From IMG/VR virus record IMGVR_UViG_3300044858_003749: a stretch of DNA of 64,000 bases; one strand, given 5' to 3'. Both the position numbers and the translations under genes were made by a program. The DNA comes from a virus (Duplodnaviria > Heunggongvirae > Uroviricota > Caudoviricetes). Positions 27,790 through 64,000 of this stretch are shown in pieces; the first letter of the stretch is position 1; each line of letters starts with the position of its first letter. The notes under the pieces are model-generated. The model was not told the DNA's origin, searched no databases, and was given only the letters and a program-made list of their open reading frames with translations.

Positions 27790-27790
27790 T

Positions 27791-27798
27791 TATAAATA
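27791..27798 (+). promoter_or_regulatory. T4-type late promoter TATAAATA
   Basis: An exact TATAAATA 30 nt upstream of the 27828 ATG. Confidence 0.5.
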
Positions 27799-27827
27799 AT
27801 AAAAAGAGTGGATAGGGAAACTCTATT

Positions 27828-29993
27828 ATGGCAAATAATAATTTTGTTGTAAAGAACGGAATTGAAGTAGCAAATAAGTTACTTTATGCTGATTCTATTA
27901 CCAATAGAGTTGGTATTGGAACTTCAACTCCGACTGTGGAATTGGATGTTGCTGGTGATGTTAGACTAGACAATCTAACTATTTCTGAGATTTTATCGTT
28001 ATATGGTAATGTCCGGCTTAATGGTCAACTAGGTTCGGAAGGGGATATTTTATCCGTAACTGGTACTGGTGTTACCTGGCGCCCAGCACCAGGATTGAGA
28101 AGTCTTGCTAGTTTTAATGCAACTCAAGATCAGTTTATTTTTAACGTTCTTTATACACCAGCCAATGGTGTTGATGTTTTCTTAAACGGTGCTAGATTAT
28201 CAGCTAGTGATTATGTTGCAAGTAACGGAACAACTGTAGAATTAATTGTTCCTTGTTATGCCGGGGATAAGGTAGACATTGTTTCCTACTCAGTTTTCGG
28301 TGAATCAAATCCTGGTATAACGATTAAAGAAAATTCGGTCGCTGTTGGTTCTAATAATGCTATCAACGAAATCAACTTTGTTGGCTTCACAAGTGTATCT
28401 TTAAGCAGTAGTGGTCTGGGTATTAGTGTATTCAGTAATTTTTATGAATTTGATAATATAGATCTGACTGGTAAGCTAGCTTTCTATGAAGATACTCCTA
28501 ACTGCCCAAATTATATCGGGTTTCAGGCTCCTTCAGCATTTACTACATCAACCACATATACTCTTCCAACAGCCTATCCACCTGATCCTGGAATGGTATT
28601 ATCGTCAAATACCGTTGGTATTCTGACTTGGGTTACTGGCGTTGGTGGCAGCAGTGGTGGTGCATTTAGTTACATTAACGTTGATAATATTACGTCAACA
28701 AATTTAACATCCCACCCCAGTTTAACTTCAGCTAATCACAACTTTTTTGTTGGCAGCAATAGCGGCACATCTATTACTTCTGGTGATGATAATACTTTTA
28801 TTGGTCGGGATTCAGGAAGAACTAATACAATTGGTGCCCAAAACGTTTTTATTGGTTATGAAGCGGGAAGATCTAACATTGATGGGGGATCTAACGTTTT
28901 TATTGGTCGCGGGGCGGGTTATTCTAACAATTACGCATATTCCAATGTTTTTATTGGTGATCAAGCAGGAAGAAGTAATACAGTTGGAAACAATAACGTA
29001 TTTCTAGGTTTTTATGCTGGTAATGGTAATGTGGGAGGTGAACATAATGTTTTTACCGGAACCTACGCAGGCACGAGTGTTGCTAGTGGTTCATATAATA
29101 TTATGTCTGGATATCTAGCTGGAAGAGAGTCTACTGGTTCTAATAACATTTTTCTTGGAGCTTCTGCTGGTTCCAATCATATATCTGGGGATTATAATAT
29201 AGCTATTGGCCCTGCTGCCGGAGGAAAGGGTGGATCATTCAATATTGCTATGGGGTCGGATGCTGGGCAGAATAATATAGGAACTCGGAATATCTTCATA
29301 GGTGAAGACTCTGGTTTGCGGAATACAACGGGTAATTATAATAGTTTTTATGGTAGAAACTCTGGCAGTGAAAATAAGACTGGTTCTAGTAACATTTGTA
29401 TTGGTGATTTTTCTGGTTGGAATAATATTAGTGGTAATCAGAATCTTTATCTTGGTGCTTCTTCGGGTGTTTCCACTAACGCTTCGTATAAAGTAATCAT
29501 AGGTAATGGTAGATATCTAGACCAAGCGAATCCTTTTGATTCCCCAAGTACAACCAAAGATTTACAATTAGCCATCGGTATGAGAACCGATACTAATGCC
29601 AGTAAGTATTGGATAGTTGGTGATGAGAATTTCAACATTGGTATCGGAACAACTGCCCCAACTTCTAAATTAGATGTTATTGGAATCACAAGACTTCAAG
29701 ATAATGTTACAATTGGTTCTGGTTCTACAATGTTAGGATCCAGACTAACTGTTAATGGAAATTCTAATTTTCTTGGTATAGCAACTATTGGTATTGGATC
29801 TACTGTTGGTGCGCCAACATTAGATGTTCGTGGTAATGCTAGTATTAGTGGTATTGTTACTGTTGGATTGGGAACTACTTCTAGCCCGTCTAATTCTTCT
29901 ATGAGTTTTGAGCTTACAACAAATACATCTTTGATTATAAAAGTCAGAGGAACTGATGGTGTTCTTAGAAGTACAACTCTCACATTAGCATAA
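27828..29993 (+). CDS. tail-fibre protein with tandem ~15-aa beta-helix repeats
   Basis: 721 aa. About 14 consecutive repeats of the form 'N-FIG--AG--NT-G' between roughly aa 300 and 520. Confidence 0.6.
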   Translation: MANNNFVVKNGIEVANKLLYADSITNRVGIGTSTPTVELDVAGDVRLDNLTISEILSLYGNVRLNGQLGSEGDILSVTGTGVTWRPAPGLRSLASFNATQDQFIFNVLYTPANGVDVFLNGARLSASDYVASNGTTVELIVPCYAGDKVDIVSYSVFGESNPGITIKENSVAVGSNNAINEINFVGFTSVSLSSSGLGISVFSNFYEFDNIDLTGKLAFYEDTPNCPNYIGFQAPSAFTTSTTYTLPTAYPPDPGMVLSSNTVGILTWVTGVGGSSGGAFSYINVDNITSTNLTSHPSLTSANHNFFVGSNSGTSITSGDDNTFIGRDSGRTNTIGAQNVFIGYEAGRSNIDGGSNVFIGRGAGYSNNYAYSNVFIGDQAGRSNTVGNNNVFLGFYAGNGNVGGEHNVFTGTYAGTSVASGSYNIMSGYLAGRESTGSNNIFLGASAGSNHISGDYNIAIGPAAGGKGGSFNIAMGSDAGQNNIGTRNIFIGEDSGLRNTTGNYNSFYGRNSGSENKTGSSNICIGDFSGWNNISGNQNLYLGASSGVSTNASYKVIIGNGRYLDQANPFDSPSTTKDLQLAIGMRTDTNASKYWIVGDENFNIGIGTTAPTSKLDVIGITRLQDNVTIGSGSTMLGSRLTVNGNSNFLGIATIGIGSTVGAPTLDVRGNASISGIVTVGLGTTSSPSNSSMSFELTTNTSLIIKVRGTDGVLRSTTLTLA

Positions 29994-30001
29994 AATAACC
30001 A

Positions 30002-31396
30002 ATGACCTATCCTAACAGAGAACTATCACAGTTTGCATCATTTTTAAAAGTTAATGATGTAAATCAAAAAATAGCAATAACAACCTCAGCAACCCCTTAT
30101 ATTGGTATTGGTTTAACTAATCCTTCTGAAAAGTTAGAAGTATTGGGTAACATAAAAGCCAGTGGTGTTGTGAGCGCAACTCAATATTTTGGTGATGGAA
30201 GTTCTTTGAGCAATGTAACTGCTATTGTGAATGGATATTTTGTTAATACTGTATCTGGTATTTGGACTGGATCCAGTGTCGGAATTGGAACTACACTTTT
30301 TCCTAATAAGTTAAATGTTAATGGAAATGTTGGTGGATTTATTTTTTACTCTAATGCGCCGATTGGAACTGCACCTCTTAATGTTCAATCAACAACGAGA
30401 GTTAATAATCTCAATGTTCAATTTTTAGATGGTCTATCCGCACCTTCTAGTAATATTGTCGGTGAGTCTGATGTTCAAACTCTGGAGAATAAGACTCTTG
30501 TTCAGCCTGATATATCCATAATTAAAAATGGTTCGGCTAGTTTAACGGTGCCATCCACATCTGGCACTTTAATTAGTTCTGGATCTAGTGGTATTATTAC
30601 CAGTGGAATGTATGCAAGTGGAAGTATAAACGATTCTGTTATTTCTGTTGGCGCTGGAATTTCTTATGCTAAATTAAATCTAGGTAGTGCTATTAAGTCT
30701 TCTGATATTGATCCGAATAACAGAATTCAAAATAATAAGTTAGTAAATAGTACGATCTCTGGAGTTTCTCTTGGTAGTAATTTATTAAATTTAGTTGCTG
30801 GTAGTTATATTGACGGTGGTTCTTATAATGGCTCAGGTATTGTTACTTTTTCCATTCGGGCTAGTGTTGATAATGTTGCGAATACTCTTGTTGCTAGAGA
30901 TGCAAATGGTAATGTAAATATTCAGGGTGCTAATTTTAACGGATCTATTCCTATTGGTGGAATTATTATGTGGAGTGGTGCGACTGTTCCTTCTAGTTGG
31001 GCATTATGTAATGGTGCTACTGTTAATGGTGTTGCGACTCCAGATTTAAGAGATCGTTTTATTGTTGGTTCAGGTTCTGCTTATAACATTGGTAACACTG
31101 GTGGTGCGAATGCCGTTACTTTGAGTATAGCTCAGATGCCGGCACACGCTCATGGCGGAGTGACTAACACCGATTTTCCAGATCACACACATAACGTTTC
31201 ATTCCAAACAGAAAATGTGCCGAAGAACCCAGGCCAAACATCGGTTATAACACCTAAACCTAATCTCAATTTCACTGTCGGGAGCAGCGGAGCCACATCT
31301 AGACACCAACACTCAATTAGCGCCGAGGGTGGTTCCAGCGCACATGAAAACCGTCCACCATATTATGCTTTGGCTTTTATTATGCGAGTTCAATAA
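30002..31396 (+). CDS. tail-fibre protein with a C-terminal phage tail-collar domain
   Basis: C-terminal 'GGIIMWSGATVPSSWALCNGATVNGVATPDLRDRFIVGSG' matches the tail-collar pattern (G.I..W.G...P.GW..C.G......PDLR.RF). Confidence 0.65.
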   Translation: MTYPNRELSQFASFLKVNDVNQKIAITTSATPYIGIGLTNPSEKLEVLGNIKASGVVSATQYFGDGSSLSNVTAIVNGYFVNTVSGIWTGSSVGIGTTLFPNKLNVNGNVGGFIFYSNAPIGTAPLNVQSTTRVNNLNVQFLDGLSAPSSNIVGESDVQTLENKTLVQPDISIIKNGSASLTVPSTSGTLISSGSSGIITSGMYASGSINDSVISVGAGISYAKLNLGSAIKSSDIDPNNRIQNNKLVNSTISGVSLGSNLLNLVAGSYIDGGSYNGSGIVTFSIRASVDNVANTLVARDANGNVNIQGANFNGSIPIGGIIMWSGATVPSSWALCNGATVNGVATPDLRDRFIVGSGSAYNIGNTGGANAVTLSIAQMPAHAHGGVTNTDFPDHTHNVSFQTENVPKNPGQTSVITPKPNLNFTVGSSGATSRHQHSISAEGGSSAHENRPPYYALAFIMRVQ

Positions 31397-31960
31397 CGAA
31401 GATAAGAATCTTACCACAGAAACTCAAGACTGTCAATCCTCCGTGTGTCAATTCCAGAATCGGCATAGTGAAGGTTGACAGTTTCCCGTTTAGGGTGTAG
31501 GATCAGCCTTGTCAGCGTTGATGAACATTTACTATCTAATTAACTACTTATGAATAAAACACTAAAGATTACTAATGGTATTGAATCATTTGATATTGAA
31601 TGTACAAATAAGATTCATACTAGAGTCAGCGAAGAATGCCTACTTCAGATGACTTATAAGAACAAAATTATTCCAGAACAGGTAGTTCTACAAGTTCTGT
31701 TAGAAGAATTAAAAATTGCAAACAAAGAAGATTGGTCACTATGTATCTAATTTCAATCTGGTTTAATGTTCTAAATGGAACCTCATCCAATCATGAATTT
31801 TTTCATTTGATTAATTCTGGTTGGTTAGAGATGAAATTTATAGAAAAGTATGGAGATAATCCATCAGAAGAAGTTTACTGGGAATGGATGTATGAACATG
31901 CTGAAACAATTTATATTTCACAACAAGACTACGATTACCTAACTCGTGATGATGTTTTAA

Positions 31961-32305
31961 GTGAATAATTATTTTGTTCGTCGTCGGGTCGCATTGAATC
32001 CTAAAACATTACCAGAAATCTTAGAAGGTCTGGCTAATGATAAGGATTGGAGTGTTCGTATTGAGGTTGCAGAAAATTCCAACACACCACCAGAAACCTT
32101 AGAACGGCTGGCTGATGATGAGAGTTCTTTTGTTCGTAGCTGTGCTGTACGAAATCCCAACACACCACCAGAAACCTTAGCTCGTCTGGCTAATGATGAG
32201 GATTGGTATGTTCGTCTTGGGGTTGTAATTAATCCCAACACACCACAATACATTAGAACTTATCTTAAAATTAAAAAGCTTCTGAATTATTATGAGCAAT
32301 TATGA
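31961..32305 (+). CDS. LRV/HEAT-like repeat protein (family member A, 3 repeats)
   Basis: 26-aa repeats 'NPNTPPETLERLANDEDWYVR'. C-terminal cap 'NPNTPQYIRTYLKIKKLLNYYEQL'. Confidence 0.7.
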   Translation: MNNYFVRRRVALNPKTLPEILEGLANDKDWSVRIEVAENSNTPPETLERLADDESSFVRSCAVRNPNTPPETLARLANDEDWYVRLGVVINPNTPQYIRTYLKIKKLLNYYEQL

Positions 32306-32579
32306 GCTAGCGAGGAGTCGCAACACCACACCAGAAACATTAGAACGTCTGGCTAATGATGTGAATGCCACTGTTCGTTGTGAGGTTGCAGAAAATATCA
32401 ACACACCACAAGAAAGTTTAAAAAATCTGGCAAATGATAATAATCGGACTGTTGCGTATTATGCTAGAAATAATAAAAATTATAATAATCCAATGAAACT
32501 AGAGACCTTTGAGTTTTTTGAATGGGTGGAAAATGCAAGCATAGAAGATCTAGAGAACTTTGCAAATAAAGAATTGTGA
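32292..32579 (+). CDS. LRV/HEAT-like repeat protein (member B, 2 repeats, divergent C-terminus)
   Basis: Starts 'MSNYELA' and overlaps the stop of member A. Confidence 0.65.
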   Translation: MSNYELARSRNTTPETLERLANDVNATVRCEVAENINTPQESLKNLANDNNRTVAYYARNNKNYNNPMKLETFEFFEWVENASIEDLENFANKEL

Positions 32580-32929
32580 AAACTATTATTGCCGGATCAA
32601 GAAATTGTAATAACATAAAAGAATTAATAAAAGCTATTGAAGATTGTAATTGGGTAATAACAACAGTAATAAGTGGAAAAGCTAAGGGTGCTGATACATT
32701 AGGTGAATTGTGGGCCAAATATATGAAGGTTCCTATTATTGAATTTCCAGCCGATTGGAAAACTTATGGTAGATCCGCCGGCCCCCGTAGAAATATTCAA
32801 ATGGCAGATAATGCAGAAGCTCTTATTGCATTATGGGATGGTGAGAGTCGTGGAACAAAACACATGATAAGTGTAGCCGAAGAAAAACAACTATTGGTAC
32901 ACGTCCATAAATTCTGTTGTGACGGTTGA
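32576..32929 (+). CDS. SLOG-like (DprA/LOG/YspA-type Rossmann) small protein
   Basis: GTG start overlapping the stop of member B. Motif 'IAGSRNC...VISGKAKGADTLGELWAK...IALWDGESRGTKHM' resembles the SLOG/DUF2493 pattern. Confidence 0.45.
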   Translation: MKTIIAGSRNCNNIKELIKAIEDCNWVITTVISGKAKGADTLGELWAKYMKVPIIEFPADWKTYGRSAGPRRNIQMADNAEALIALWDGESRGTKHMISVAEEKQLLVHVHKFCCDG

Positions 32930-32998
32930 AAAACTGTCACTTCTTTTCGTTTGTGGGTGGTAATCGCTGTTATTCTATTCGGAGAGTTCACGAGAAGA

Positions 32999-33421
32999 AT
33001 GTTTTCTGAAGAAGATACTGCGCGATGTTGGGATGCACAAAATCCTAAAACCACACCAGAAACCTTAGATCGTCTGGCTAACGATAAGAGTAATCTGGTT
33101 CGTCGTAGGGTTGCAGAAAATCCCAATACACAATCAGAAACATTAGAACGTCTAGCTGATGACGACGATTATTGGGTTCGTTTTCGGGTTGCAATTAATC
33201 CCAACGCACCACCAGAAGCCTTAGAACGGCTGGCGAATGATAAGGATTCTTCTGTTCGTTGGTATATTGCAAGAAATCCTATCACACCACCAGAAGTTTT
33301 AGAACTTATGGCTAATGATAGGGATTGGGATGTTCGTTGGCAGGTTGCAAGAAATCCTAACACACCGCAATACATTATAACGTATCTTAAAATCAAGGAG
33401 TTTCTGAATTATTATGAGTAA
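32999..33421 (+). CDS. LRV/HEAT-like repeat protein (member C, 4 repeats)
   Basis: Repeats plus the 'PQYIITYLKIKEFLNYYE' cap. An alternative start is at 32951. Confidence 0.7.
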   Translation: MFSEEDTARCWDAQNPKTTPETLDRLANDKSNLVRRRVAENPNTQSETLERLADDDDYWVRFRVAINPNAPPEALERLANDKDSSVRWYIARNPITPPEVLELMANDRDWDVRWQVARNPNTPQYIITYLKIKEFLNYYE

Positions 33422-33731
33422 TTATGATCTAGCAAGAAATTCCAACACATTACCAGAAGCTTTAGATCGTCTGGCTAATGATAACGATTATTGGGTTCGT
33501 CAATATGTTGCATATAATCCATCCACGCCACCAGAAGCTTTAGAACGTCTGGCTAATGATAAGTATCCATGTATTCGTTGTGGGGTTGCATGGAATCCCA
33601 ACACACTACCAGAAATATTAGTTAATATGTCTAATGATAAGTATATTTATATTCGTAGCTGTGTTGCAAATAATCCCAGCACACCACAATACATTAGAAC
33701 ATATCTTAAACTCAACCAAAACAATTTTTGA
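33414..33731 (+). CDS. LRV/HEAT-like repeat protein (member D, 3 repeats)
   Basis: Starts 'MSNYDLA' and overlaps the 'YYE*' of member C. Confidence 0.7.
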   Translation: MSNYDLARNSNTLPEALDRLANDNDYWVRQYVAYNPSTPPEALERLANDKYPCIRCGVAWNPNTLPEILVNMSNDKYIYIRSCVANNPSTPQYIRTYLKLNQNNF

Positions 33732-33732
33732 C

Positions 33733-34986
33733 ATGTCTTTGAGCGCCATTAAACTCCGCCCACAACAGACCGAAGCTCTTGGTATTATGGAAGAGCATAA
33801 TAAAGTTCGGGTTATTGCTGCAACATCAGCGGGTAAGAGTTACATCATCTTCTTTGATATTCATAAGAAAGCGAAGAATAAAGAGAACTCTTTGTTTGTT
33901 ATCGTAAGCTCTCGTATTCTACTCCTTCAACAACTAGAGAAAGAATATTCTAAACTATTTGATAATACTCATATCGTTCATATGCACTCTGGAGAAGCCA
34001 AAAGCCGTAAGATTACAGATTATCTTGAGTTCAGTTATTGGGCAGAAGTCACCGAAGGACCTAAGATTGTTTTTGTAACTTATCATTCTCTTAAGAAGAT
34101 CGTTAAGAGTGAGATGAATATTGATGCTCTATATTTGGACGAATGCCACAATGGAGCTAAGAGTCACTTCTTTGAGTATATTAAAGGAGTTGAACCTTAT
34201 TGTAATAATCTTTACAGTTTCACCGCTGCTCCTCGTTATCATCCAGATCCTACAAAAAACGGTAACAACAACTCAGAAGTTTTTGGTAGTCAAGTTTATA
34301 ATGTTAATACTCTTGATTTGATCAAGAATGGTTCTATTCTTCCACCAAAATCCCAAACCATGAGAATTCCTTCCGTGCGGGATAAGAAGCAGAACCCTCA
34401 TGAGAGTGATTATTATACTCTTATGGACTATCTTTATAATAACGATAATACCGAGAGAGTTCTTATTACTTGCCCCTCTTCAAGATCACTTATGGATTTG
34501 ATTTGTCTTACTGATTTTTTGAAAGATTTGAATGATAGTGGTTATGATGTATTTCATATCACATCAAAATATGGTGCCTTCCATAATAAGACAAAGATTA
34601 AACGGTCAGAATTCTTGAATCGGATGGAAGAGTATGGGGAGCAAAATAAAAAATTTGTCGTTCTCCATTATAGTATCTTGACCGAAGGTTGGAGTAATAA
34701 TTCCATTCAGGCATCTATTCTCATGCGACAACAACAATTGGGTGCTACAATTCAAAATATTGGTAGGACACTACGGATTGGCCATTCAGATATTGATCGT
34801 ATTCAAAAAGGGGAGTTGACTGCTGGTGATTATGATAATTATGAAAAGCCCTGTGGTAACATAATCATTCCAGTATATGAGAACGTGGGTTCTAACATTG
34901 AAGAACAGGTAGATTTTGTTATTGACGAGGTTTTTACCAAAGGTAATTATGTTCACGATCTTATTAATGAGAAAAAGAAGTCATGA
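33733..34986 (+). CDS. SF2 DExH-box helicase / type III restriction Res-like ATPase
   Basis: Walker A 'AATSAGKS' and DECH box 'LYLDECHNGAKS'. It is inserted between LRV members D and E. Confidence 0.6.
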   Translation: MSLSAIKLRPQQTEALGIMEEHNKVRVIAATSAGKSYIIFFDIHKKAKNKENSLFVIVSSRILLLQQLEKEYSKLFDNTHIVHMHSGEAKSRKITDYLEFSYWAEVTEGPKIVFVTYHSLKKIVKSEMNIDALYLDECHNGAKSHFFEYIKGVEPYCNNLYSFTAAPRYHPDPTKNGNNNSEVFGSQVYNVNTLDLIKNGSILPPKSQTMRIPSVRDKKQNPHESDYYTLMDYLYNNDNTERVLITCPSSRSLMDLICLTDFLKDLNDSGYDVFHITSKYGAFHNKTKIKRSEFLNRMEEYGEQNKKFVVLHYSILTEGWSNNSIQASILMRQQQLGATIQNIGRTLRIGHSDIDRIQKGELTAGDYDNYEKPCGNIIIPVYENVGSNIEEQVDFVIDEVFTKGNYVHDLINEKKKS

Positions 34987-35327
34987 ATAATGAAGGATTG
35001 AAAATATTACAGGCGTCTAATACCAACACACCAACAGAAATCTTAGAACGTCTGGCTAATGATGGGGATTATTATGTTCGTTCTCGGGTTGCATCTAATC
35101 ACAACACATCACCAGAAACCTTAGAACGTCTGGCTAATGATGATTTTGTGGATGTTCTTTATTGGGTTGCAGAAAATCCCAACACTCCGTCAGAAATCTT
35201 AGAACGTTTGGCTAATGATGGTTCTTGGTTTGTTCGTTGTGGGGTTGCAAATAATCCCAATACACCTCAATACATTATAACATATCTTAAAATCAAGAAG
35301 TTTCTGAATTATTATGAGCAATTATAA
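34983..35327 (+). CDS. LRV/HEAT-like repeat protein (member E)
   Basis: ATGA overlap with the helicase stop. 3 repeats plus cap. Confidence 0.7.
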   Translation: MNNEGLKILQASNTNTPTEILERLANDGDYYVRSRVASNHNTSPETLERLANDDFVDVLYWVAENPNTPSEILERLANDGSWFVRCGVANNPNTPQYIITYLKIKKFLNYYEQL

Positions 35328-35862
35328 TCCCAACATATCACCAGAAACATTAGCTAGTCTGGCTAATAATGATTATGGGGTTGTTCGTTTTGGGGTTGCA
35401 ACAAATCCTAACACACCACCAGAAGCATTAGAACTTCTGGCGAATGATGATCATATTGATGTTCGTCGTGGGGTTGCAGTGAATCCCAACACACCACCAG
35501 AAACATTAGAACTTCTGGCTAATGATGAGAATGTTGGTGTTCGTGTGAGGGTTGCAGGAAATCTCAACACACTACCAGAAGCATTAGAACGTCTTGCTAA
35601 TGATGGCGATTATTATGTTCGTTATTGGGTTGCATCAATTACCAACACACCACCAAAAATATTAGTTATTATGGCTAACGATAAGCATTCTCATGTTCGT
35701 AGCTGTGTTGCATCTAATACCAATACACCACCAGAAGCCTTAGAACGTCTGGCTAATGATAATAATTGGCTTGTTCGTTGGCAGGTTGCATATAATCCCA
35801 ACACTCCCCAATACATTCTAACTTATCTTAAAATCAAGGAGTTTCTGAATTATTATGAGTAA
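35314..35862 (+). CDS. LRV/HEAT-like repeat protein (member F, 6 repeats)
   Basis: 182 aa of repeats plus cap. Its start overlaps the 'YYEQL*' of member E. Confidence 0.7.
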   Translation: MSNYNPNISPETLASLANNDYGVVRFGVATNPNTPPEALELLANDDHIDVRRGVAVNPNTPPETLELLANDENVGVRVRVAGNLNTLPEALERLANDGDYYVRYWVASITNTPPKILVIMANDKHSHVRSCVASNTNTPPEALERLANDNNWLVRWQVAYNPNTPQYILTYLKIKEFLNYYE

Positions 35863-35864
35863 TT

Positions 35865-36107
35865 ATGAGTAATTATGATCCCCACACATCAACAGAAACA
35901 TTAGATCGTCTGGCTAATGATGAAGATTTGGAAGTTCGTTGTCAGGTTGCACAAAATCCCAATACACCACCAGAAGCATTATCACGTCTGGCTGATGATA
36001 AGAGTTATTATGTTCGTTCTGGGGTTACATTTAATCCCAACACACCTCAATACATTCTAACTTATCTTAAAATCAAGAAGTTTCTGAATTATTATAAATT
36101 ATTATGA
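35865..36107 (+). CDS. LRV/HEAT-like repeat protein (member G, 2 repeats)
   Basis: Repeats plus cap. Confidence 0.7.
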   Translation: MSNYDPHTSTETLDRLANDEDLEVRCQVAQNPNTPPEALSRLADDKSYYVRSGVTFNPNTPQYILTYLKIKKFLNYYKLL

Positions 36108-36436
36108 CTAATTACGATATAGCAAAAAATCTCAATACATCAATAGAAACCTTAGAACGTCTGGCTAATGATGACGATTGTTGTGTTCGTTGTGGGGTTG
36201 CAGAAAATCCCAACACACCACCAGAAGCATTAGCACGTCTGGCGAATGATAATAGTTATTATGTTCGTGGCTGGGTTGCAAGAAATCCCAATACACCACC
36301 AGAAGCCTTAGAACGTCTGGCTAATGATAATAATTGGCTTGTTCGTTGGCAGGTTGCATTTAATCCCAACACCCCCCAATACATTCTAACTTATCTCAAA
36401 GTTAGACAGTTTCTGAGGTGTCACACTAGAACCTAA
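36104..36436 (+). CDS. LRV/HEAT-like repeat protein (member H, 3 repeats)
   Basis: Starts 'MTNYDIA'. Repeats plus a variant cap. Confidence 0.7.
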   Translation: MTNYDIAKNLNTSIETLERLANDDDCCVRCGVAENPNTPPEALARLANDNSYYVRGWVARNPNTPPEALERLANDNNWLVRWQVAFNPNTPQYILTYLKVRQFLRCHTRT

Positions 36437-36482
36437 AAACTCACAGGGGGTGCTATTATGGATTCATAATTCAGCTCAAACC

Positions 36483-37226
36483 ATGACCAATTACGTTTTT
36501 ATCGGAGACGTTCACTCTCAATTCTCCAAATTTTCCGCAGCGGTGGATTGGATTCAAAATAATGTGAAAGATTATCACATTATTCAAGGTGGTGATCTCT
36601 TTGATTCTAGGTCAGAGGAATCTAATTCTATGTTAGTTTATAATCTTGTTAAACTATTGGAGGATCGTATTACGGTTCTACATTCAAATCATCATATTAA
36701 ACTCTATAAGATTCTAACACAAGAAAATAATAACATGCAAAATCTGGAGAGTCTTCATAGGACTGTTATAGATTTTGATTTTGATAATAACAAAAGTCTG
36801 AAAGACGAGATCGTGAATTGGTTAGAAACCCTTCCTTACGGCGTCTCTTTTAAAGATCAGACGGGATTGGAATATAGGGCCTGCCATGCTTATTGGTTCA
36901 AAAAGCTTTATGTGCCGAATGAGTATGAAGGACTTTATCCCATTCATGAAGTTTCAGCAAAAGCCAAGGGGCAGATGTTGTATGGAATTAGCCGAAAAGG
37001 AGAAGACGGTGGAAATGAAAGGATTTTGTGGTGGAGTAATATCAATAATTCTTATTGTGGAGAGAAAGAAGAATTTGTAAGAGTTTCTTTTCATTATCAT
37101 ACAGTATCTTTGGATATTGAAGGAACTTCGGGACGAAAGCATCTGATTTTGGATGGATCTTGTGGTGACAAAGGTGGAGAATTGGTTGTCTATGATGTAA
37201 GCAATCATAGATGTGTCAGATTTTAA
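36483..37226 (+). CDS. calcineurin-like metallophosphoesterase (lambda-PPase / ApaH-like Ser/Thr phosphatase)
   Basis: Motifs 'GDVHS', 'GGDLFDSR' and 'LHSNHH' correspond to GDxHG, GDxxDRG and GNHE. Confidence 0.7.
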   Translation: MTNYVFIGDVHSQFSKFSAAVDWIQNNVKDYHIIQGGDLFDSRSEESNSMLVYNLVKLLEDRITVLHSNHHIKLYKILTQENNNMQNLESLHRTVIDFDFDNNKSLKDEIVNWLETLPYGVSFKDQTGLEYRACHAYWFKKLYVPNEYEGLYPIHEVSAKAKGQMLYGISRKGEDGGNERILWWSNINNSYCGEKEEFVRVSFHYHTVSLDIEGTSGRKHLILDGSCGDKGGELVVYDVSNHRCVRF

Positions 37227-37326
37227 AGTGGCACACCAGCAACACAAACTCTTCACTCATCGTGTTATTCTTATTGAAACTTTGGAGGACCAATGGAACT
37301 GAATGCTTTTCTGAATCAATTGATTA

Positions 37327-37584
37327 TTGATCTTGAAGATGTCTGTGATGACATTGAATTTGACTTCGGCAATAATACTGTCCCGGAAGAAAAAGTTCGC
37401 CAGATCAAAAAGGCCGTTGAGGATTTTCATAATGAAATTTAAAGTTGCTTATCAACGACCCAAAAAGAAAAAGGGTTTCTATGTCAAAGAAGAAGTTGTT
37501 TTTTATGACATTGAATCTGCTGTCTTCTATGAGTCGGAGATGACCAAACGAGGATCCAAGAACTTTAAAATTACCCCAATTTAG
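37327..37584 (+). CDS. hypothetical small protein
   Basis: 85-aa ORF. Confidence 0.3.
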   Translation: MILKMSVMTLNLTSAIILSRKKKFARSKRPLRIFIMKFKVAYQRPKKKKGFYVKEEVVFYDIESAVFYESEMTKRGSKNFKITPI

Positions 37585-37606
37585 GAGAATCTCATGACTG
37601 CTTTGG

Positions 37607-37903
37607 TTGAAACACTGTTACCTAGGATCACCAGCATTGAAGCATTTTTTTCTGATGGTGAATGGTGGGCTAGCATTCGCTATAGTGATGGAGGTGAAGA
37701 TGAGTTTGGACCTTTTGACACTAAAGAGAAAGCTGAAGGAGTTATCTTTTGATGATTTTGAATCCGCTCTTTATGTTTTTTCTGACGAATTCGGGTTTTT
37801 ATCTTCCGATCAGATGTTGATCTTGGATGTTGTATGCCTTAGTCCTCTACACGTAGAGGATTTTCTAGATATTTTTCTTTATACGAGGATATTAAATTCA
37901 TGA
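37607..37903 (+). CDS. hypothetical small protein
   Basis: 98-aa ORF. Confidence 0.3.
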   Translation: MKHCYLGSPALKHFFLMVNGGLAFAIVMEVKMSLDLLTLKRKLKELSFDDFESALYVFSDEFGFLSSDQMLILDVVCLSPLHVEDFLDIFLYTRILNS

Positions 37904-38048
37904 CTAAAATAACTACAGAACAAAAACAACAGAAGACCGAAGTAAATGAACTATCGGAAAAATTTCTAGAGTATATGGAGGATGTCATTCGTGATGACGA
38001 GGAATACGAATATCCTGAATACGATGATGCACCCTCATCTTTTTAATC

Positions 38049-39996: not shown

Positions 39997-40533
39997 TTGG
40001 CTATGTATGAAGATTATTCTAAAAAACAATTAGCTCTTCTGGCTAATGATAAACATTATTATGTTCGTTGTGGTGTTGCAAATAATCCCAACACACAACC
40101 AGAAACATTAGATCGTTTAGCGAACGATGAGCATCTGCATGTTCGTAGATATGTTGCACGAAATCCAAACACACCACCAGAAGCCTTAGATCGTCTGGCT
40201 AATGATGAGGATTCTTGGGTTCGTCTTGGGGTTGCAAGACATCCCAACACACCACCAGAAGTTTTAGAATGTTTGGCTAATGATAAGGATTATTCTGTTC
40301 GTTGTTGGGTTGCGAGAAATCCCAACACAACACCAGAAACCTTAGATCGTCTGGCTAATGATGAGCATTATTATGTTCGTACGCCGGTTGCATTTAATCC
40401 CAACACACCACCAAAAAGCTTAGAACGTCTGGCTAATGATGAGGATTGGTATGTTCGTTTTGGAGTTACAATAAATCCCAGCACACCTCAATACATTAAA
40501 ACCTATCTTAAAATTTTAAAATTATTCAAATGA
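39997..40533 (+). CDS. LRV/HEAT-like repeat protein (member I, 5 repeats)
   Basis: Repeats plus cap 'PQYIKTYLKILKLFK'. Confidence 0.7.
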   Translation: MAMYEDYSKKQLALLANDKHYYVRCGVANNPNTQPETLDRLANDEHLHVRRYVARNPNTPPEALDRLANDEDSWVRLGVARHPNTPPEVLECLANDKDYSVRCWVARNPNTTPETLDRLANDEHYYVRTPVAFNPNTPPKSLERLANDEDWYVRFGVTINPSTPQYIKTYLKILKLFK

Positions 40534-40737: not shown

Positions 40738-41106
40738 ATGAGGAGTAAGGGTAACCCCATGAAAACTCTCAATGAAAAAGAACAAAAAGTTTTGCTTTTG
40801 GCTCTTAATCACCATCAAAAATACCATAATGACATTATCTCTCAATATTTTTTTGAGGATGATAAAAACTCGGTTGTATCGGAATCTTTTGAAAGTCTTG
40901 GGACAATTAACGATTTACACAATACTTTTTCGGGTGATTCAAATCTTCATCTTTTGAGATCAGGAGATTTAGAAAACATTGAAGCCGCTTTTACTCGTTC
41001 TGACGAGATTTATAATAATGGTGATAATGTAATCATGAAGGCCAGTCTTTATTTGGCTCTTATTGATACTATTAAGGCAATTCTGAGAAAAGATGATTGT
41101 ACTTGA
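40738..41106 (+). CDS. hypothetical protein
   Basis: 122-aa ORF. Confidence 0.35.
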   Translation: MRSKGNPMKTLNEKEQKVLLLALNHHQKYHNDIISQYFFEDDKNSVVSESFESLGTINDLHNTFSGDSNLHLLRSGDLENIEAAFTRSDEIYNNGDNVIMKASLYLALIDTIKAILRKDDCT

Positions 41107-41536
41107 ATCTTATTTGAAACCTCGCATTTTGGACCAAGCAATCGCTGTGGCTATGGTAAGTAACGGATCTAAAAGAATTGGTGCGATTCTTCTTAAAAAG
41201 AATAAGATTGTCGCGGCAGCCTGTAACAATTACGACAAATCAGATGCGTTTCAATTTAGGGCTTCCCAAAGAGCCTCTATCATATACAATAAACCAGAAT
41301 ATTCAAAACGTGTTTACGGGCACGCTGAAACCCTGGCTCTTAAAAAAATTAACGATGGTGACGCTGATACGATTGTAGTTTGCAGACTTTCTGGTAAACA
41401 CAATTCTAAAAAACTGAGATTGGCTAGACCATGTAGAATTTGTTCTCATCTTATTCAAAATTTCTACCCCTCAATTCGGTATATCCATTATTCCACCGAA
41501 AGAGGATTTTTCTACGAGACTTGGGGTCTTATCTAA
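41093..41536 (+). CDS. cytidine/deoxycytidylate-deaminase-fold zinc enzyme (dCMP deaminase or TadA-like)
   Basis: Zinc-binding signature 'HAE' followed by 'PCRICSHL' (PCxxC). Confidence 0.6.
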   Translation: MIVLESYLKPRILDQAIAVAMVSNGSKRIGAILLKKNKIVAAACNNYDKSDAFQFRASQRASIIYNKPEYSKRVYGHAETLALKKINDGDADTIVVCRLSGKHNSKKLRLARPCRICSHLIQNFYPSIRYIHYSTERGFFYETWGLI

Positions 41537-41808: not shown

Positions 41809-42135
41809 ATGAGTAATTATGAGCTAGCGAGGAGACGTAACACTCCACCAGAAGCATTATCACGTCTGGCTAATGATAAGGATTCTTATGTTCGTCGTGG
41901 GGTTGCATGGAATCCCAAGACCCCTCTAGAAACCTTAGATCGTCTGGCTAATGATAAGGATTCTTGGGTTCGTGGTGAGGTTGCATTTAATCCCAACACA
42001 CCACCAGAAGTTTTAGAACGTCTGGCTAATGACGAGTATCGGTATGTTCGTCGTTTGGTTGCCAAAAATCCCAACACGCCACAATACATTAGAACATATC
42101 TTAAAATTACCGAGGTTTTGAATTATTATGAGTAA
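41809..42135 (+). CDS. LRV/HEAT-like repeat protein (member J)
   Basis: Starts 'MSNYELARRRNTPPE'. 3 repeats plus cap. Confidence 0.7.
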   Translation: MSNYELARRRNTPPEALSRLANDKDSYVRRGVAWNPKTPLETLDRLANDKDSWVRGEVAFNPNTPPEVLERLANDEYRYVRRLVAKNPNTPQYIRTYLKITEVLNYYE

Positions 42136-42454
42136 TTATGAGCTAGCAGATAATCCCAACACCCCACCAGAAACATTAGAAAGTCTAGCGAATGACGATA
42201 ATTGGTATGTTCGTAGCTGTGTGGCATTTAATCCCAACACACCACCAGAAGCTTTAGAACGTCTGGCTGATGATGAGGATTTAAATGTTCGTTATTATGT
42301 TGCAAGAAATCCCAACACATTACCAGAAACCTTAGCTCGTCTGGCTAAGGATGAGGATTGTCGTGTTCGTCGTTGGGTTGCAAGAAATCCTAACACACCA
42401 CAATACATCAAAGATTATCTTAAAATCAAGGGGTTTTTGGGTTGTTATGAGTAA
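42128..42454 (+). CDS. LRV/HEAT-like repeat protein (member K)
   Basis: Overlaps the 'YYE*' of member J. 3 repeats. Confidence 0.7.
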   Translation: MSNYELADNPNTPPETLESLANDDNWYVRSCVAFNPNTPPEALERLADDEDLNVRYYVARNPNTLPETLARLAKDEDCRVRRWVARNPNTPQYIKDYLKIKGFLGCYE

Positions 42455-42626
42455 TATTGAACTAGCAGGAAATCCCAACACACCACCAGAAACCTTAGAT
42501 CTTCTGGCTAATGATAATATTTGGAATGTTCGTTATTTGGTTGCAAAAAATCCCAACACTCCACAATACATTAGAACATACCTTAAACTTCAAAGGACGA
42601 TTGGTGGACTGTCCACAAGAAGTTGA
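42447..42626 (+). CDS. LRV/HEAT-like repeat protein (member L, single repeat, 59 aa)
   Basis: Starts 'MSNIELAGNPNTPPETLD'. ATG at 42447 (track ORF 42351..42626). Confidence 0.55.
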   Translation: MSNIELAGNPNTPPETLDLLANDNIWNVRYLVAKNPNTPQYIRTYLKLQRTIGGLSTRS

Positions 42627-43153: not shown

Positions 43154-43963
43154 ATGTCTCTCGTAAAAGTTGGTATTGGTGCTGGAGCACTTCTTGGAGT
43201 TATTCTGCTTACTGCTGGACAATTCACAACTATTAACACTGGTGAAAATGGATTATACATCGGATTTGATGGCCAGGTAAAAAATGAGATCCTTACTCCT
43301 GGTATCAAATATGATGGTCTAGGATCTATTAAAGTCTTCAACACCCGTAAGATTACTGTTACAGCAAATGATCTTCGTCCTAAAACAAAGGACAATACGA
43401 TTATGAAGGAGATGGATGTGACTGTAACTTACAGTATCAATCCTACTTCTCTGTATGAGTTCTATACGAATTATGATCTTACTAATCACGCAATTGGTGA
43501 TGGTGGACAAGTTCAATTGATGTCTAGTTATATCTCTCGTCTGATTACATCCTCTGTTAATCAGTCGGTTGACGAGTTTCCTGCTCTTGCAGTAAATTCA
43601 AACTTGGAACAAATCCAAGACACTATTAAGAATAATCTTTCAGGTGCACTCAAGAAGAACGGTCTGGAAGGTAAGATTACTATTGATTCAATTATCGTAG
43701 GTAAAGCCGACCTTCCCGATGACCTTGTTGCTTCTGTGAATCGTGTGGTTGCCGCCCAGTCTGCTAACAAAGAGCAACAAGTAAGGACTGAAACTGCTCA
43801 GTTGAAAGCGGAGGAAAACAAAGCTCTAGCATCTACAGTATCGTCACAATCACTTGAGTACCAAAGGAACGAAATTCTTCGTGCCGCGATGGAGAACGGA
43901 AGCATCCAGAAAATGCTTATTGTGAATGGTACGCCTCTTCAGTTCTTCCCAACTGACAAATAA
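43154..43963 (+). CDS. SPFH/Band-7 (prohibitin/HflC-like) membrane protein
   Basis: N-terminal TM segment, then 'TINTGENGLYIGFDGQV...YDGLGSIKVFNTRKITV', typical of the SPFH fold. Confidence 0.6.
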   Translation: MSLVKVGIGAGALLGVILLTAGQFTTINTGENGLYIGFDGQVKNEILTPGIKYDGLGSIKVFNTRKITVTANDLRPKTKDNTIMKEMDVTVTYSINPTSLYEFYTNYDLTNHAIGDGGQVQLMSSYISRLITSSVNQSVDEFPALAVNSNLEQIQDTIKNNLSGALKKNGLEGKITIDSIIVGKADLPDDLVASVNRVVAAQSANKEQQVRTETAQLKAEENKALASTVSSQSLEYQRNEILRAAMENGSIQKMLIVNGTPLQFFPTDK

Positions 43964-46131: not shown

Positions 46132-46749
46132 ATGAATTACACCGAAGAACAAGTTAAAGAAATCGTCAGAAATGTCATTTCTGAGATGCAATCTGTAAAT
46201 GTTAAGGATCTTACACTTTACCAAAAAAGGGGTGTTGCAAGAAATCCCAATACAGCACCAGAAGTCTTAGACCGTCTGGCTAATGATAAGGATTCTTATG
46301 TTCGTTGGCAGGTTGCAGAAAATCCCAACACACCACCAGAGACCTTAGAACGTCTGGCTAATGATGACGATTATTGTGTTCGTTGGAGTGTTGCATTTAA
46401 TCCCAACACACCACCAGAAACATTAGCTCGTCTAGCTAATGATGTGGATTATTGTGTTCGTACGCCGGTTGCATTTAATCCCAACACACCACCAGAAGTT
46501 TTAGAACGTCTGGCTAATGATAACGATTCTGTGGTTCGTTATTATGTTGCAAGAAATCCCAACACATTAACAGAAACTTTAGAACGTTTGGCTAATGATA
46601 AGAGTTCTTCTGTTCGTGAATGTGTTGTACAAAATCCTAACTACAAACGGAAATCCAACAATAAGATCACTATTGAGCTTACAGAAGAACAGTTGTCTCA
46701 ATTACGAAAATGTGCAGACATGTTCTCTGGTCTTTTAGGATCTGTATAA
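46132..46749 (+). CDS. LRV/HEAT-like repeat protein (member M, 5 repeats, distinct N- and C-termini)
   Basis: Repeats 'NPNTPPETLERLANDDDYCVRWSVAF'. The C-terminus 'NPNYKRK...' is shared with member N. Confidence 0.7.
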   Translation: MNYTEEQVKEIVRNVISEMQSVNVKDLTLYQKRGVARNPNTAPEVLDRLANDKDSYVRWQVAENPNTPPETLERLANDDDYCVRWSVAFNPNTPPETLARLANDVDYCVRTPVAFNPNTPPEVLERLANDNDSVVRYYVARNPNTLTETLERLANDKSSSVRECVVQNPNYKRKSNNKITIELTEEQLSQLRKCADMFSGLLGSV

Positions 46750-57477: not shown

Positions 57478-57501
57478 TCAGATGTAAAGACTTTAAAACA
57501 T

Positions 57502-63264: not shown

Positions 63265-63681
63265 ATGCTTATTGATGATTCGTTTATTTACATTCTTAAA
63301 AGCGATGCGAGGAAAATAGTCGCTCAAATTATTACAGTTCCTGAAGTTTTAGCTCGTTTAGCTAAGGATAATAATTCTAATGTTCGTTGTCATGTTGCAT
63401 GGAATCGCAACACACCACCAGAAGCATTAGAACGTCTGGTTAATGATGATGATGATTGGGTTCGTTATTATGTTGCACAAAATCCCAACACATCAACAGA
63501 AACCTTAGAACGTTTGGCTAATGATAGGAGTTCTTCTGTTCGTGCGAATGCTACATGTAATCCCAATTATAAAAAACCTAACACCATTCATTTCACAAAT
63601 GATCAAATGGTAGCACTAAAATCTTTGATTGAAAGTGCTAGTAACCCACATCTTCAGGAATTTCTTAAAAATGCTGATTGA
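63265..63681 (+). CDS. LRV/HEAT-like repeat protein (member N, 3 repeats)
   Basis: RBS AAAGGAG. The C-terminus 'NPNYKKPN...' is shared with member M. Confidence 0.7.
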   Translation: MLIDDSFIYILKSDARKIVAQIITVPEVLARLAKDNNSNVRCHVAWNRNTPPEALERLVNDDDDWVRYYVAQNPNTSTETLERLANDRSSSVRANATCNPNYKKPNTIHFTNDQMVALKSLIESASNPHLQEFLKNAD

Positions 63682-63710
63682 CCTTTCAGATGGAATTTTT
63701 AACCATAGAT

Positions 63711-64000
63711 ATGTATCGTTATGAGGTTGCAAATAATCCAAACACATCAATAGAAACCTTAGAACGTCTGGCTAATGATGACGATTGTTGTGTTCGTTAT
63801 TATGTTGTAAGAAATCCCAACACACCACCAGAAACCTTAAAGTGTCTGGCTAATGATGTGAATTCTGATATACGTTGTGGGGTTGCACTGAATCCCAATA
63901 CACCAACAGAAACATTAGATCGTCTGGCTAATGATGAGTATCTGCATGTTCGTAGATATGTTGCACAAAATCCCAACACACCACCAGAAACTTTAGAACG
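63711..64000 (+). CDS. LRV/HEAT-like repeat protein (member O, at least 4 repeats, truncated by the window end)
   Basis: ATG at 63711. 'NPNTSIETLERLANDDDCCVRYYVVRNPNTPPETL...' continues in frame to the last base. Confidence 0.6.
   Translation, partial: MYRYEVANNPNTSIETLERLANDDDCCVRYYVVRNPNTPPETLKCLANDVNSDIRCGVALNPNTPTETLDRLANDEYLHVRRYVAQNPNTPPETLE

What the first reader, a model, noticed from the sequence alone, without database searches (positions are those of the whole stretch)
32576..37226. Enzymes interspersed within the LRV array: SLOG-like protein, DExH helicase and PPP-family phosphatase
The repeat-protein array is interrupted at defined cassette boundaries with start/stop overlaps. 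The interrupting genes are a SLOG/DUF2493-like Rossmann protein (32576-32929), an SF2 DExH helicase/Res-like ATPase (33733-34986) and a calcineurin-like Ser/Thr phosphatase (36483-37226). A helicase plus phosphatase plus nucleotide-processing fold embedded in a hypervariable repeat locus looks like a defence or counter-defence island, not a core T4-type function.
Basis: inference. Interest (0 to 1): 0.6.

Follow-up and report, generated by a model that had tools for sequence, protein, structure and literature searches.

The report
Conserved phage enzymes invaded by repeat genes
The three enzymes are real, but they are an older, conserved gene string of a freshwater cyanobacterial virus into which small repeat-protein genes later inserted and multiplied, so this is not a purpose-built defence island.

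Summary
All three ORFs exist at the stated coordinates and carry the stated domains. They are a YAcAr/SLOG protein (32576-32929), an SF2 DExH ATPase (33733-34986) and a binuclear metallophosphoesterase (36483-37226). Eight LRV genes flank them, with overlaps or gaps of -14 to +2 nt.

The window is a T4-like freshwater cyanomyovirus; the nearest isolates are Synechococcus phages B3/B23. In six LRV-free relatives (helicase 65-68% identical) the helicase sits in the same slot after the tail-fibre genes. In five of them the phosphatase abuts it. In the sixth the SLOG gene lies upstream. Only the closest subclade (at least 70% identical) carries LRV genes, always at gene junctions and in varying numbers.

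The LRV family is the more unusual feature: 15 genes and 48 repeat units in the window, homogenised within the lineage.

The parts
31961..32305 (+). LRV gene (114 aa, 3 repeat cores), first of the cluster; ends in the cap NPNTPQYIRTYLKIKKLLNYYEQL
   Evidence: PF01816 E 3.8e-24; translation and junction
32292..32579 (+). Chimeric LRV gene (95 aa). It has N-terminal LRV repeats. Its C-terminal 26 aa are homologous to the tail of a non-LRV gene that precedes SLOG in the LRV-free relative L010. Its stop overlaps the SLOG start (GTGA).
   Evidence: PF01816 E 1.4e-6; BLASTP to L010:6837-7481, 50% over 26 aa, E 6e-8
32576..32929 (+). YAcAr/DUF2493 SLOG-superfamily protein (117 aa)
   Evidence: PF10686 E 6.3e-13; phrog_289 E 3.8e-28. 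Orthologs at 58-69% identity in L008, L009, L010 and L021, in the same slot upstream of the helicase
32919..32940 (+). Terminator-like hairpin (9 bp stem, T-rich tail) overlapping the SLOG stop
   Evidence: Consensus scan. Total terminator-like hits were not above the shuffle expectation, so this is weak evidence.
32999..33421 (+). LRV gene (140 aa from the ATG used in the JGI call; 4 repeat cores)
33414..33731 (+). LRV gene (105 aa, 3 repeat cores); its stop lies 1 nt before the helicase ATG
33733..34986 (+). SF2 DExH ATPase/helicase (417 aa). It is a member of a cyanomyovirus-wide helicase family, with a minimal two-RecA core and a short C-terminal extension.
34983..35327 (+). LRV gene (114 aa, 3 cores); ATGA overlap with the helicase stop
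35314..35862 (+). LRV gene (182 aa, 6 cores)
   Evidence: PF01816 E 3.5e-37
35865..36107 (+). LRV gene (80 aa, 2 cores)
36104..36436 (+). LRV gene (110 aa, 3 cores). In the 98.7%-identical contig L006 its 3' part is fused in frame to the 5' part of gene 35314, through a 724-bp deletion.
36483..37226 (+). Stand-alone binuclear metallophosphoesterase (247 aa) of the lambda-PPase/ApaH/Pnkp branch; closest to the Pnkp phosphatase module
39997..40533 (+). LRV gene outside the flagged span (178 aa, 6 cores)
   Evidence: PF01816 E 1.5e-39
41809..42626 (+). Three tandem LRV genes (41809-42135, 42128-42454, 42447-42626) joined by the same conserved junction
46132..46749 (+). LRV gene with non-LRV N- and C-terminal extensions (205 aa, 5 cores)
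63265..64000 (+). Two more LRV genes (63265-63681, and 63690 to the window end)

Best explanation
The stretch lies in the accessory ('hyperplastic') gene region that follows the tail-fibre module of a freshwater T4-like cyanomyovirus.

Backbone. It is an older, co-oriented gene string: (SLOG/YAcAr) -> SF2 DExH helicase -> Pnkp/ApaH/lambda-type metallophosphoesterase. In LRV-free relatives the helicase and phosphatase directly abut each other.

LRV genes. In one subclade, small LRV genes entered the junctions between these and other genes. Each has 2-6 copies of a 26-aa repeat, a conserved MSNY start and an NPNTPQYIxTYLKIKxFLNYYE cap. They then multiplied by tandem duplication and unequal recombination. 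The conserved junction (…AAGGAGTTTCTGAATTATTATGAGTAATTATGA) places the start of each gene over the stop of the previous one. The 'array interrupted by enzymes' is therefore a conserved enzyme string invaded by a proliferating repeat-gene family.

Likely function (inferred, not shown).
- The helicase is a near-universal cyanomyovirus nucleic-acid translocase.
- The phosphatase removes 2',3'-cyclic or 3'-phosphate ends from broken RNA or DNA, as the phosphatase module of bacterial Pnkp does.
- The SLOG protein is a nucleotide- or ssDNA-binding helper of a kind that other phages place beside, or fuse to, helicases.
- Together they most likely process or repair nucleic-acid ends during infection.
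- The LRV proteins are most likely a diversifying family of alpha-solenoid binders whose targets are unknown.
For: Identity of the phage:
- T4-type gp32, gp59, baseplate and tail-fibre genes are present.
- gp32 is 54% identical to that of Synechococcus phages B3/B23, which were isolated from a subarctic lake (PMC7171214).

Backbone:
- B23 has tail fibre -> helicase gp23 -> phosphatase gp27 -> ... -> NMNAT -> NAMPT, collinear with the window and with no LRV motif.
- L012/L013, L022, L023 and L024 (helicase 65-68% identical) have helicase and phosphatase adjacent and no LRV.
- L010 (65%) has SLOG upstream of the helicase and no LRV.
- LRV genes occur only in the window, L008/L009 (71%) and L021 (70%). 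They sit at the same junctions but differ in number and length.

Invasion footprints:
- Gene 32292-32579 keeps the tail of the displaced upstream gene.
- The junction motif persists at the non-LRV/LRV boundary at 41809.

Expansion and homogenisation:
- There are 48 repeat units in the window.
- All 48 have their nearest nucleotide neighbour inside the window rather than in L008/L009.
- The window consensus is LERLAND; in L008/L009 it is LEQLATD.
- Variation is concentrated at repeat positions 14-17, 20-21 and 24.
- A 98.7%-identical contig lacks 724 bp, giving an in-frame fusion of two LRV genes.

Helicase:
- 419 cyanophage records carry a homolog.
- Sullivan et al. 2010 list a cyanophage-exclusive helicase in 14 of 16 genomes (PMC3037559).

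Phosphatase:
- The PDB profile search also ranks 4j6o first (E 0.0045).
- 10 of 10 longer relatives tested carry an N-terminal AAA_33 kinase, and 4 of them also carry a T4 Rnl1-type ligase.
- There is a weak hit to phrog_8238 'RNA ligase'.

SLOG:
- 1288 phage records carry a homolog.
- It lies next to a DNA helicase and a Cas4 exonuclease in Vibrio phage H188.
- It lies in the DnaB/primase/RecB module of Bacillus phage PBC4.
- It is fused to the SF1B accessory helicase HelB of ICP1 (bioRxiv 10.1101/671271).
Against: - No biochemical or expression data exist, so every function is inferred from homology and context.
- No polynucleotide kinase or RNA ligase partner was found in the 64-kb window.
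- SLOG is absent from at least four relatives that keep the helicase-phosphatase pair (L012, L013, L023, L024; the short upstream flank of L022 does not decide it). In L010 the phosphatase is not near the helicase. The trio is therefore not an obligate unit.
- The L006 deletion could be a collapse of repeats in a short-read assembly.
- Iyer et al. predict that YAcAr domains use NAD+ to make ADP-ribose-derived signals rather than bind DNA (PMC7824862).
Confidence: 0.62

Rival explanations
1. LRV proteins and the three enzymes form one functional defence or counter-defence island, with LRV proteins acting as variable adaptors or sensors that direct the helicase, phosphatase and SLOG protein to targets.
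For: - LRV genes are translationally coupled to the helicase (ATGA overlap) and to SLOG (GTGA).
- In all four LRV-bearing genomes, LRV genes occupy the helicase-phosphatase junction.
- Variation is concentrated at a few repeat positions, which fits a binder family.
- The wider region holds NAD-salvage genes (NAMPT, NMNAT-Nudix, NADAR). From my own knowledge, such genes serve counter-defence in other phages.
Against: - The enzymes occur together without LRV in six relatives and in B23.
- LRV genes also sit beside unrelated genes at 39997, 41809, 46132 and 63265.
- PADLOC has no specific match for any of them.
- The helicase family is near-universal in cyanomyoviruses that have no LRV.
Confidence: 0.13
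2. The phosphatase is a lambda NinI/PrpA-like Ser/Thr/Tyr protein phosphatase that rewires host phospho-signalling. Its position next to the helicase has no functional meaning.
For: - phrog_246 'NinI-like serine-threonine phosphatase', E 3.3e-6.
- The S-CBWM1 homolog is annotated as a putative Ser/Thr phosphatase.
Against: - Pnkp ranks first by both fold and profile.
- Every multidomain relative tested is a polynucleotide-kinase fusion, and none carries a protein-phosphatase regulatory domain.
- The motifs deviate from the PPP consensus: GDVHS, GDLFDSR and SNHH against GDxHG, GDxVDRG and GNHE.
Confidence: 0.12
3. The phosphatase is an ApaH-like hydrolase. It would destroy Np4N alarmones or remove Np4 caps from RNA and so modulate the host stress response.
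For: - NCBIfam ApaH models are the only hits (E 1e-4 and 2.4e-3, far below the cut-offs).
Against: - It scores below Pnkp on every measure.
- The NCBIfam scores are 21.8 and 17.4 bits against cut-offs of 176 and 223.
- The fused relatives point to polynucleotide ends.
Confidence: 0.08
4. The LRV copy-number differences are assembly artefacts, and the LRV genes are decaying pieces of one or a few long LRV genes rather than an expanding family.
For: - Short-read metagenome assemblies collapse repeats, and L006 is only a 3.3-kb contig.
- Neighbouring genes differ by frame shifts at a conserved junction, which would also fit a broken long ORF.
Against: - Each gene has its own conserved start (MSNY) and C-terminal cap, and the junction carries an AAGGAG motif upstream of the ATG.
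- Independent contigs (L005, L007) reproduce the window sequence exactly.
- L008, L009 and L021 have different, intact LRV gene sets at the same junctions.
- LRV genes are dispersed at seven separate sites.
Confidence: 0.05

Closest known systems
Cyanomyovirus-specific 'helicase' (e.g. Syn9 gp75, S-RIM2, P-RSM1, B23 gp23)
   Same: About 410-aa SF2 DExH protein, 32-37% identical over at least 96% of its length. It lies in the variable region after the tail-fibre genes or among small early-type ORFs. It is listed as cyanophage-exclusive and present in 14 of 16 genomes by Sullivan et al. 2010.
   Different: In this clade it is paired with a Pnkp-type phosphatase, and in one subclade it is flanked by LRV genes. 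Marine relatives have neither. No function has been shown for any member.
Phosphatase module of bacterial Pnkp (Clostridium thermocellum, PDB 4J6O), and functionally the T4 Pnkp/Rnl1 RNA-repair pathway
   Different: It is stand-alone (247 aa), with no fused or neighbouring kinase or ligase in the window. From my own knowledge, the phosphatase of T4 Pnkp belongs to a different fold family (HAD-type), so the resemblance to T4 would be functional only.
Lambda Ser/Thr protein phosphatase (NinI) and E. coli ApaH
   Different: Both score lower than Pnkp. The signature motifs are altered, and the scores lie far below the NCBIfam equivalog cut-offs.
YAcAr/DUF2493 SLOG proteins of phages, including the C-terminal domain of ICP1 HelB
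   Same: Pfam PF10686 and phrog_289 match over the full length, and the protein is 44-54% identical to many phage proteins. The family recurs beside, or fused to, helicases and recombination nucleases.
   Different: Here the partner is an SF2 helicase, not an SF1B one, and it is a separate gene. The family is not among the common organism groups for cyanophages. Its ligand is unknown; NAD-derived signalling has been predicted (PMC7824862).
Hyperplastic regions and PeSL-mediated gene shuffling of T4-type phages (PMC2839356, PMC4122927)
   Same: Small accessory genes are inserted between conserved genes, and repeated junction sequences could support recombination.
   Different: The repeated junction here is coding (the end of one LRV gene and the start of the next). 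It is not a promoter plus stem-loop, and promoter-like matches were not above chance.
Multigene families of repeat proteins in large eukaryotic viruses (poxvirus ankyrin genes, 'genomic accordion'); comparison from my own knowledge
   Same: Many paralogous repeat-protein genes, lineage-specific expansion, copy-number change between close strains, and variation focused on a few surface positions.
   Different: This is a bacterial virus, the repeat is LRV rather than ankyrin, and no host-range phenotype is known.

Membership tests
SLOG superfamily, YAcAr/DUF2493 (PF10686) | Match to the family model above the curated threshold over the whole domain | tested here: met
   48.8 bits against a cut-off of 28.2, covering profile positions 1-66 of 66; phrog_289 E 3.8e-28
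SLOG superfamily, YAcAr/DUF2493 (PF10686) | Nucleotide (or ssDNA) binding by the Rossmann-like fold | not testable with these tools
   Only sequence motifs are visible (IIAGSR, SGKAKGAD, ESRGT).
SF2 helicase/translocase | Motifs I (GKS/T), II (DExH), III and VI conserved, with two RecA-like domains | tested here: met
T4 UvsW orthologue | Detectable sequence relationship and best fold match to UvsW | tested here: not met
Type I/III restriction enzyme Res/HsdR subunit | Nuclease domain in the protein and adjacent Mod/HsdM-HsdS genes | tested here: not met
   The protein is a bare 417-aa motor and its neighbours are LRV genes. The only methylase in the window is at 4193-4993. The NCBIfam EcoAI score is 26 bits against a cut-off of 550.
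PPP-family Ser/Thr protein phosphatase (lambda PPase type) | Signature motifs GDxHG, GDxVDRG and GNHE | tested here: inconclusive
   The metal ligands are present but the motifs read GDVHS, GDLFDSR and SNHH, invariant in the family. Lambda PPase is only the fifth fold hit.
Pnkp-type polynucleotide end-healing phosphoesterase | Closest fold and profile relationship to the Pnkp phosphatase module | tested here: met
Pnkp-type polynucleotide end-healing phosphoesterase | Partner 5'-kinase and RNA ligase in the same protein, operon or genome | tested here: not met
   No homolog of the AAA_33 kinase or RNA ligase genes of L010, L012 and L014 was found in the 64-kb window. The rest of the genome is not available. 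Relatives L012 and L014 do carry such genes within 10 kb.
Pnkp-type polynucleotide end-healing phosphoesterase | 2',3'-cyclic phosphodiesterase / 3'-phosphatase activity on polynucleotides | not testable with these tools
   This needs an enzyme assay.
Known anti-phage defence systems (PADLOC-DB) | Specific match of the components to a defence-system model | tested here: not met
   There were no hits for SLOG or the phosphatase, and the two LRV proteins tested gave at most one non-significant hit (AbiEi, E 0.0026, no qualifying stretch). The helicase gave only weak generic SF2 hits (PbeA 4.6e-8, HamB 2e-7, partial).
Leucine-rich repeat variant (LRV, PF01816) | Tandem repeats matching the LRV model above threshold | tested here: met
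   E 1.4e-6 to 1.5e-39 for five genes. The period is 78 nt (26 aa), with 48 units in the window.
PeSL-type mobile regulatory cassette | Early promoter plus stem-loop flanking the inserted genes | tested here: inconclusive
   The conserved junction contains a 9/12 promoter-like match (TTAAAA-17-TATTAT) at five junctions. Overall there were 33 promoter-like hits against 26.4 +/- 5.2 expected, and no stem-loop accompanies them.

The most novel reading that the evidence does not exclude
The LRV genes would be a phage 'accordion' family: rapidly expanding, homogenising and recombining alpha-solenoid binders that target host factors, possibly defence proteins. They would spread to new gene junctions through their conserved coding junction. 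The SLOG-helicase-Pnkp-type phosphatase string they surround would be a previously unrecognised nucleic-acid repair or counter-nuclease module of freshwater cyanomyoviruses.
Probability: 0.2. Interest if true: 0.7.

Novelty: new member of a known kind. Interest (0 to 1): 0.38.

Why it matters
The result reverses the direction of the story. The enzymes are the stable part of the locus and the repeat genes are the mobile part.

It yields two testable leads:
- A stand-alone Pnkp-type end-healing phosphatase is conserved next to the cyanophage-specific SF2 helicase, whose role has never been defined. This pairing hints at RNA or DNA end repair.
- Expansion of a repeat-protein multigene family is well known in large eukaryotic viruses but rarely described in phages. 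Here it can be studied across a graded set of relatives with and without the family.

Neither lead overturns current knowledge. The three enzymes themselves are ordinary accessory genes of a T4-like phage.

Tried and rejected
- Megablast of 31500-38000 against 50,697 phage records: no match.
- phmmer of all three enzymes against PDB sequences: no meaningful hit.
- PADLOC scan: nothing specific.
- NCBIfam: only sub-threshold hits.
- Literature search for 'leucine rich repeat variant' with 'phage': zero papers.
- A Syn9 paper was checked for the phage helicase, but it only discusses host Gabija/R-M helicases.
- BFVD fold search of the helicase gave only generic viral SF2 helicases.
- A search of the window for the kinase, RNA ligase and second Metallophos genes seen in relatives L010, L012 and L014 found nothing.
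- The second Metallophos of L012 is unrelated to this family (hhalign probability 0.3%), so it does not compete for the Pnkp-type role.
- Cluster names for distant phosphatase relatives were uninformative.
- UvsW orthology and a restriction-enzyme Res-subunit identity were both considered for the helicase and rejected (see the membership tests).
- The promoter/terminator scan gave counts no higher than in shuffled sequence.

Full report
**Observation.** The ORF list shows the three flagged genes at exactly the stated coordinates. JGI gene calls on metagenome contigs that are 100% identical to the window give the same starts and stops.
- The 117-aa protein (32576-32929) matches PF10686 (YAcAr, the YpsA-related SLOG family) at E 6.3e-13, above the curated cut-off. 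It matches phrog_289 at 3.8e-28.
- The 417-aa protein (33733-34986) matches ResIII, DEAD and Helicase_C, and phrog_16 at 1.7e-44. Its Walker A, DECH, motif III and motif VI residues are invariant in 39 homologs.
- The 247-aa protein (36483-37226) matches PF00149 above threshold. All binuclear-metal ligands are invariant in 25 homologs.
- Eight LRV genes (PF01816, E down to 1e-37) surround them. The junctions are -14, -4, +69, -8, +1, -4, -14, +2, -4 and +46 nt.

One correction is needed: LRV genes are not confined to this stretch. Fifteen of them, all on the + strand, are spread from 31961 to the window end and are separated by many unrelated genes.

**What the window is.** It encodes T4-type proteins: PhoH, gp59, gp32, baseplate and hub proteins, and long tail fibres. 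It has no near-identical DNA in 50,697 phage records. Its gp32 is closest (54%) to Synechococcus phages B3/B23. These are 244-kb myoviruses isolated from a subarctic lake on a Synechococcus-Cyanobium host (PMC7171214). The flagged stretch begins right after the tail-fibre genes (23122-31396).

**Which part is old and which is new.**
- *Helicase distribution.* The helicase has full-length homologs (32-37% identity) in 419 phage records, all of them cyanophages. In Syn9, Sf-FR1 and B23 its neighbours are not LRV genes. An LRV query finds no cyanophage at all in that collection; the only hit is a Moorella phage. Sullivan et al. 2010 list a helicase among cyanophage-exclusive genes found in 14 of 16 genomes (PMC3037559).
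- *B23.* The order in B23 is tail fibre, helicase gp23, phosphatase homolog gp27, a small ORF, an SPFH protein, NMNAT, NADAR-like and NAMPT. This is collinear with the window and has no LRV motif.
- *LRV-free relatives.* A protein search and contig look-ups gave a graded series of closer relatives. In L012/L013, L022, L023 and L024 (helicase 65-68% identical) the phosphatase follows the helicase directly. There is no SLOG gene upstream in L012, L013, L023 or L024 (L022 has only about 630 nt of upstream sequence). None of them has an LRV gene. In L010 (65%) the SLOG gene lies upstream of the helicase, and again there is no LRV gene.
- *LRV-bearing relatives.* Only the window, L008/L009 (71%) and L021 (70%) carry LRV genes. 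These sit at the same junctions (SLOG/helicase, helicase/phosphatase and several downstream junctions) but differ in number and length.
- *Footprints of insertion.* Gene 32292-32579 is a chimera whose last 26 residues match the tail of the non-LRV gene that precedes SLOG in L010. The junction motif also survives at the boundary between an unrelated gene and the LRV gene at 41809.

The simplest reading is that (SLOG)-helicase-phosphatase is the ancestral backbone and that LRV genes entered its junctions in one subclade.

**The LRV family.**
- *Gene structure.* Each gene has an MSNY-type start, 1-6 copies of a 26-aa (78-nt) unit with the window consensus NTPPETLERLANDKDSYVRCGVARNP, and usually a cap NPNTPQYIxTYLKIKxFLNYYE. 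The coding sequence of the cap contains AAGGAG and overlaps the next gene's ATG.
- *Homogenisation.* The window holds 48 units. All 48 have their nearest nucleotide neighbour within the window rather than in L008/L009, whose consensus differs (LEQLATD against LERLAND). Variation is concentrated at unit positions 14-17, 20-21 and 24. This pattern fits lineage-specific expansion or gene conversion of a binder scaffold.
- *Copy-number variation.* A 98.7%-identical contig (L006) lacks 724 bp between two repeat units. The result is an in-frame fusion of genes 35314 and 36104, leaving two LRV genes instead of four between helicase and phosphatase. This is either real unequal recombination or an assembly collapse.
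- *Distribution.* Small LRV proteins with the same cap are common on long metagenomic contigs. Cellular homologs (Nostoc, Melainabacteria) share the repeat but lack the cap.

**The enzymes.**
- *SLOG.* The family is widespread in phages (1288 records). It lies beside a helicase and recombination nucleases in Vibrio phage H188 and Bacillus phage PBC4. It is fused to the SF1B accessory helicase HelB of ICP1 (bioRxiv 10.1101/671271). Iyer et al. instead predict NAD-derived signalling for YAcAr domains (PMC7824862).
- *Defence models.* PADLOC gave no specific defence-system match for any component.

**Most likely mechanism.**
- *Shown:* conserved order, coupling and distribution of the genes; intact catalytic motifs; the fold relationships.
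- *Inferred:* the helicase and the Pnkp-type phosphatase act on nucleic-acid ends during infection, either repairing RNA or DNA cut by host nucleases or processing ends in replication and recombination. The SLOG protein would be a facultative helper. The LRV proteins would be a diversifying binder family with unknown targets that merely share the transcription units.

The trio is not obligate. SLOG is missing in several relatives, and in L010 the phosphatase lies elsewhere.

**Verdict.** The 'defence island built around a repeat array' interpretation is not supported. The enzymes are ordinary, conserved accessory genes of a cyanomyovirus clade, so they count as new members of known kinds. The more unusual element is the LRV multigene family that has invaded the region.

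Noticed in passing
window 51826-53313 and 60887-62236: Two phage-encoded aminoacyl-tRNA synthetases. One is a class II Asp/Lys/Asn-type enzyme with an OB anticodon-binding domain (PF00152, E 2.7e-90). The other is a cysteinyl-tRNA synthetase (PF01406, E 4.7e-122).
   Followed up: no
window 47203-48848: A DUF2828/DUF7788 protein (phrog_850 'RNA-binding protein', E 1e-145) is followed by a tRNA-like RNA at 48735-48848. The RNA has intact acceptor, D and T arms but a 53-nt insertion in place of the anticodon region. ARAGORN does not call it, Rfam scores it as tRNA at 50.7 bits, and there is a weak YrlA (Y RNA-like) hit at E 0.6. This may be a Ro/Y-RNA-like pair.
   Followed up: partly
window 55702-60431: An NAD salvage cluster made up of NMNAT-Nudix (55702-56760), NADAR (56929-57477) and NAMPT (57518-59869). 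The NAMPT gene carries an insertion of about 320 aa (roughly residues 298-615) that matches segments of ribonucleotide reductase, thymidylate synthase and PhoH PHROGs, so it is probably an intein. B23 NAMPT lacks the insertion. An HNH endonuclease gene follows at 59955-60431.
   Followed up: partly
window 44781-45551: A Thg1-like 3'-5' nucleotidyltransferase (PF04446, E 1e-26; phrog_4717, 1e-63). It is conserved at 74% identity in L008.
   Followed up: no
L006 2041-2247 against window 35398-36328: A 98.7%-identical strain contig lacks 724 bp. This fuses LRV genes 35314 and 36104 in frame into a single 132-aa gene. It is either a copy-number variant or an assembly collapse.
   Followed up: yes
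window 32292-32579: This LRV gene is a chimera. Residues 66-91 match the C-terminus of a 214-aa non-LRV gene that precedes SLOG in L010 (50% identity, E 6e-8).
   Followed up: yes
L012 14428-20710; L014 19943-21230: LRV-free relatives carry an AAA_33 kinase, a second and unrelated Metallophos gene, and RNA ligase genes (PF09414, or T4 Rnl1-type) a few kb downstream of the helicase. The window has no homologs of these.
   Followed up: partly
window 43154-43963: An SPFH/Band 7 protein (PF01145, E 4e-20) is unusually conserved across the clade: 86% identical in L012 and 67% in B23.
   Followed up: no
window 41093-41536: A cytidine/dCMP deaminase-like gene lies between LRV-occupied junctions. It is 67-80% identical in most relatives (40% in L024).
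   Followed up: no
window 32265-32293, 33387-33415, 35287-35315, 35828-35856, 36067-36095: The conserved LRV junction carries the same 9/12 sigma-70-like match (TTAAAA-N17-TATTAT) five times. The total number of promoter-like hits in the region is not above the shuffle expectation, so its significance is unknown.
   Followed up: partly
L021 3928-5001: In this relative the genes between helicase and phosphatase are much more degenerate LRV-like proteins that still end in an NKNTPAYIKEFIKK-type cap. This suggests the helicase/phosphatase junction is the oldest LRV site.
   Followed up: partly
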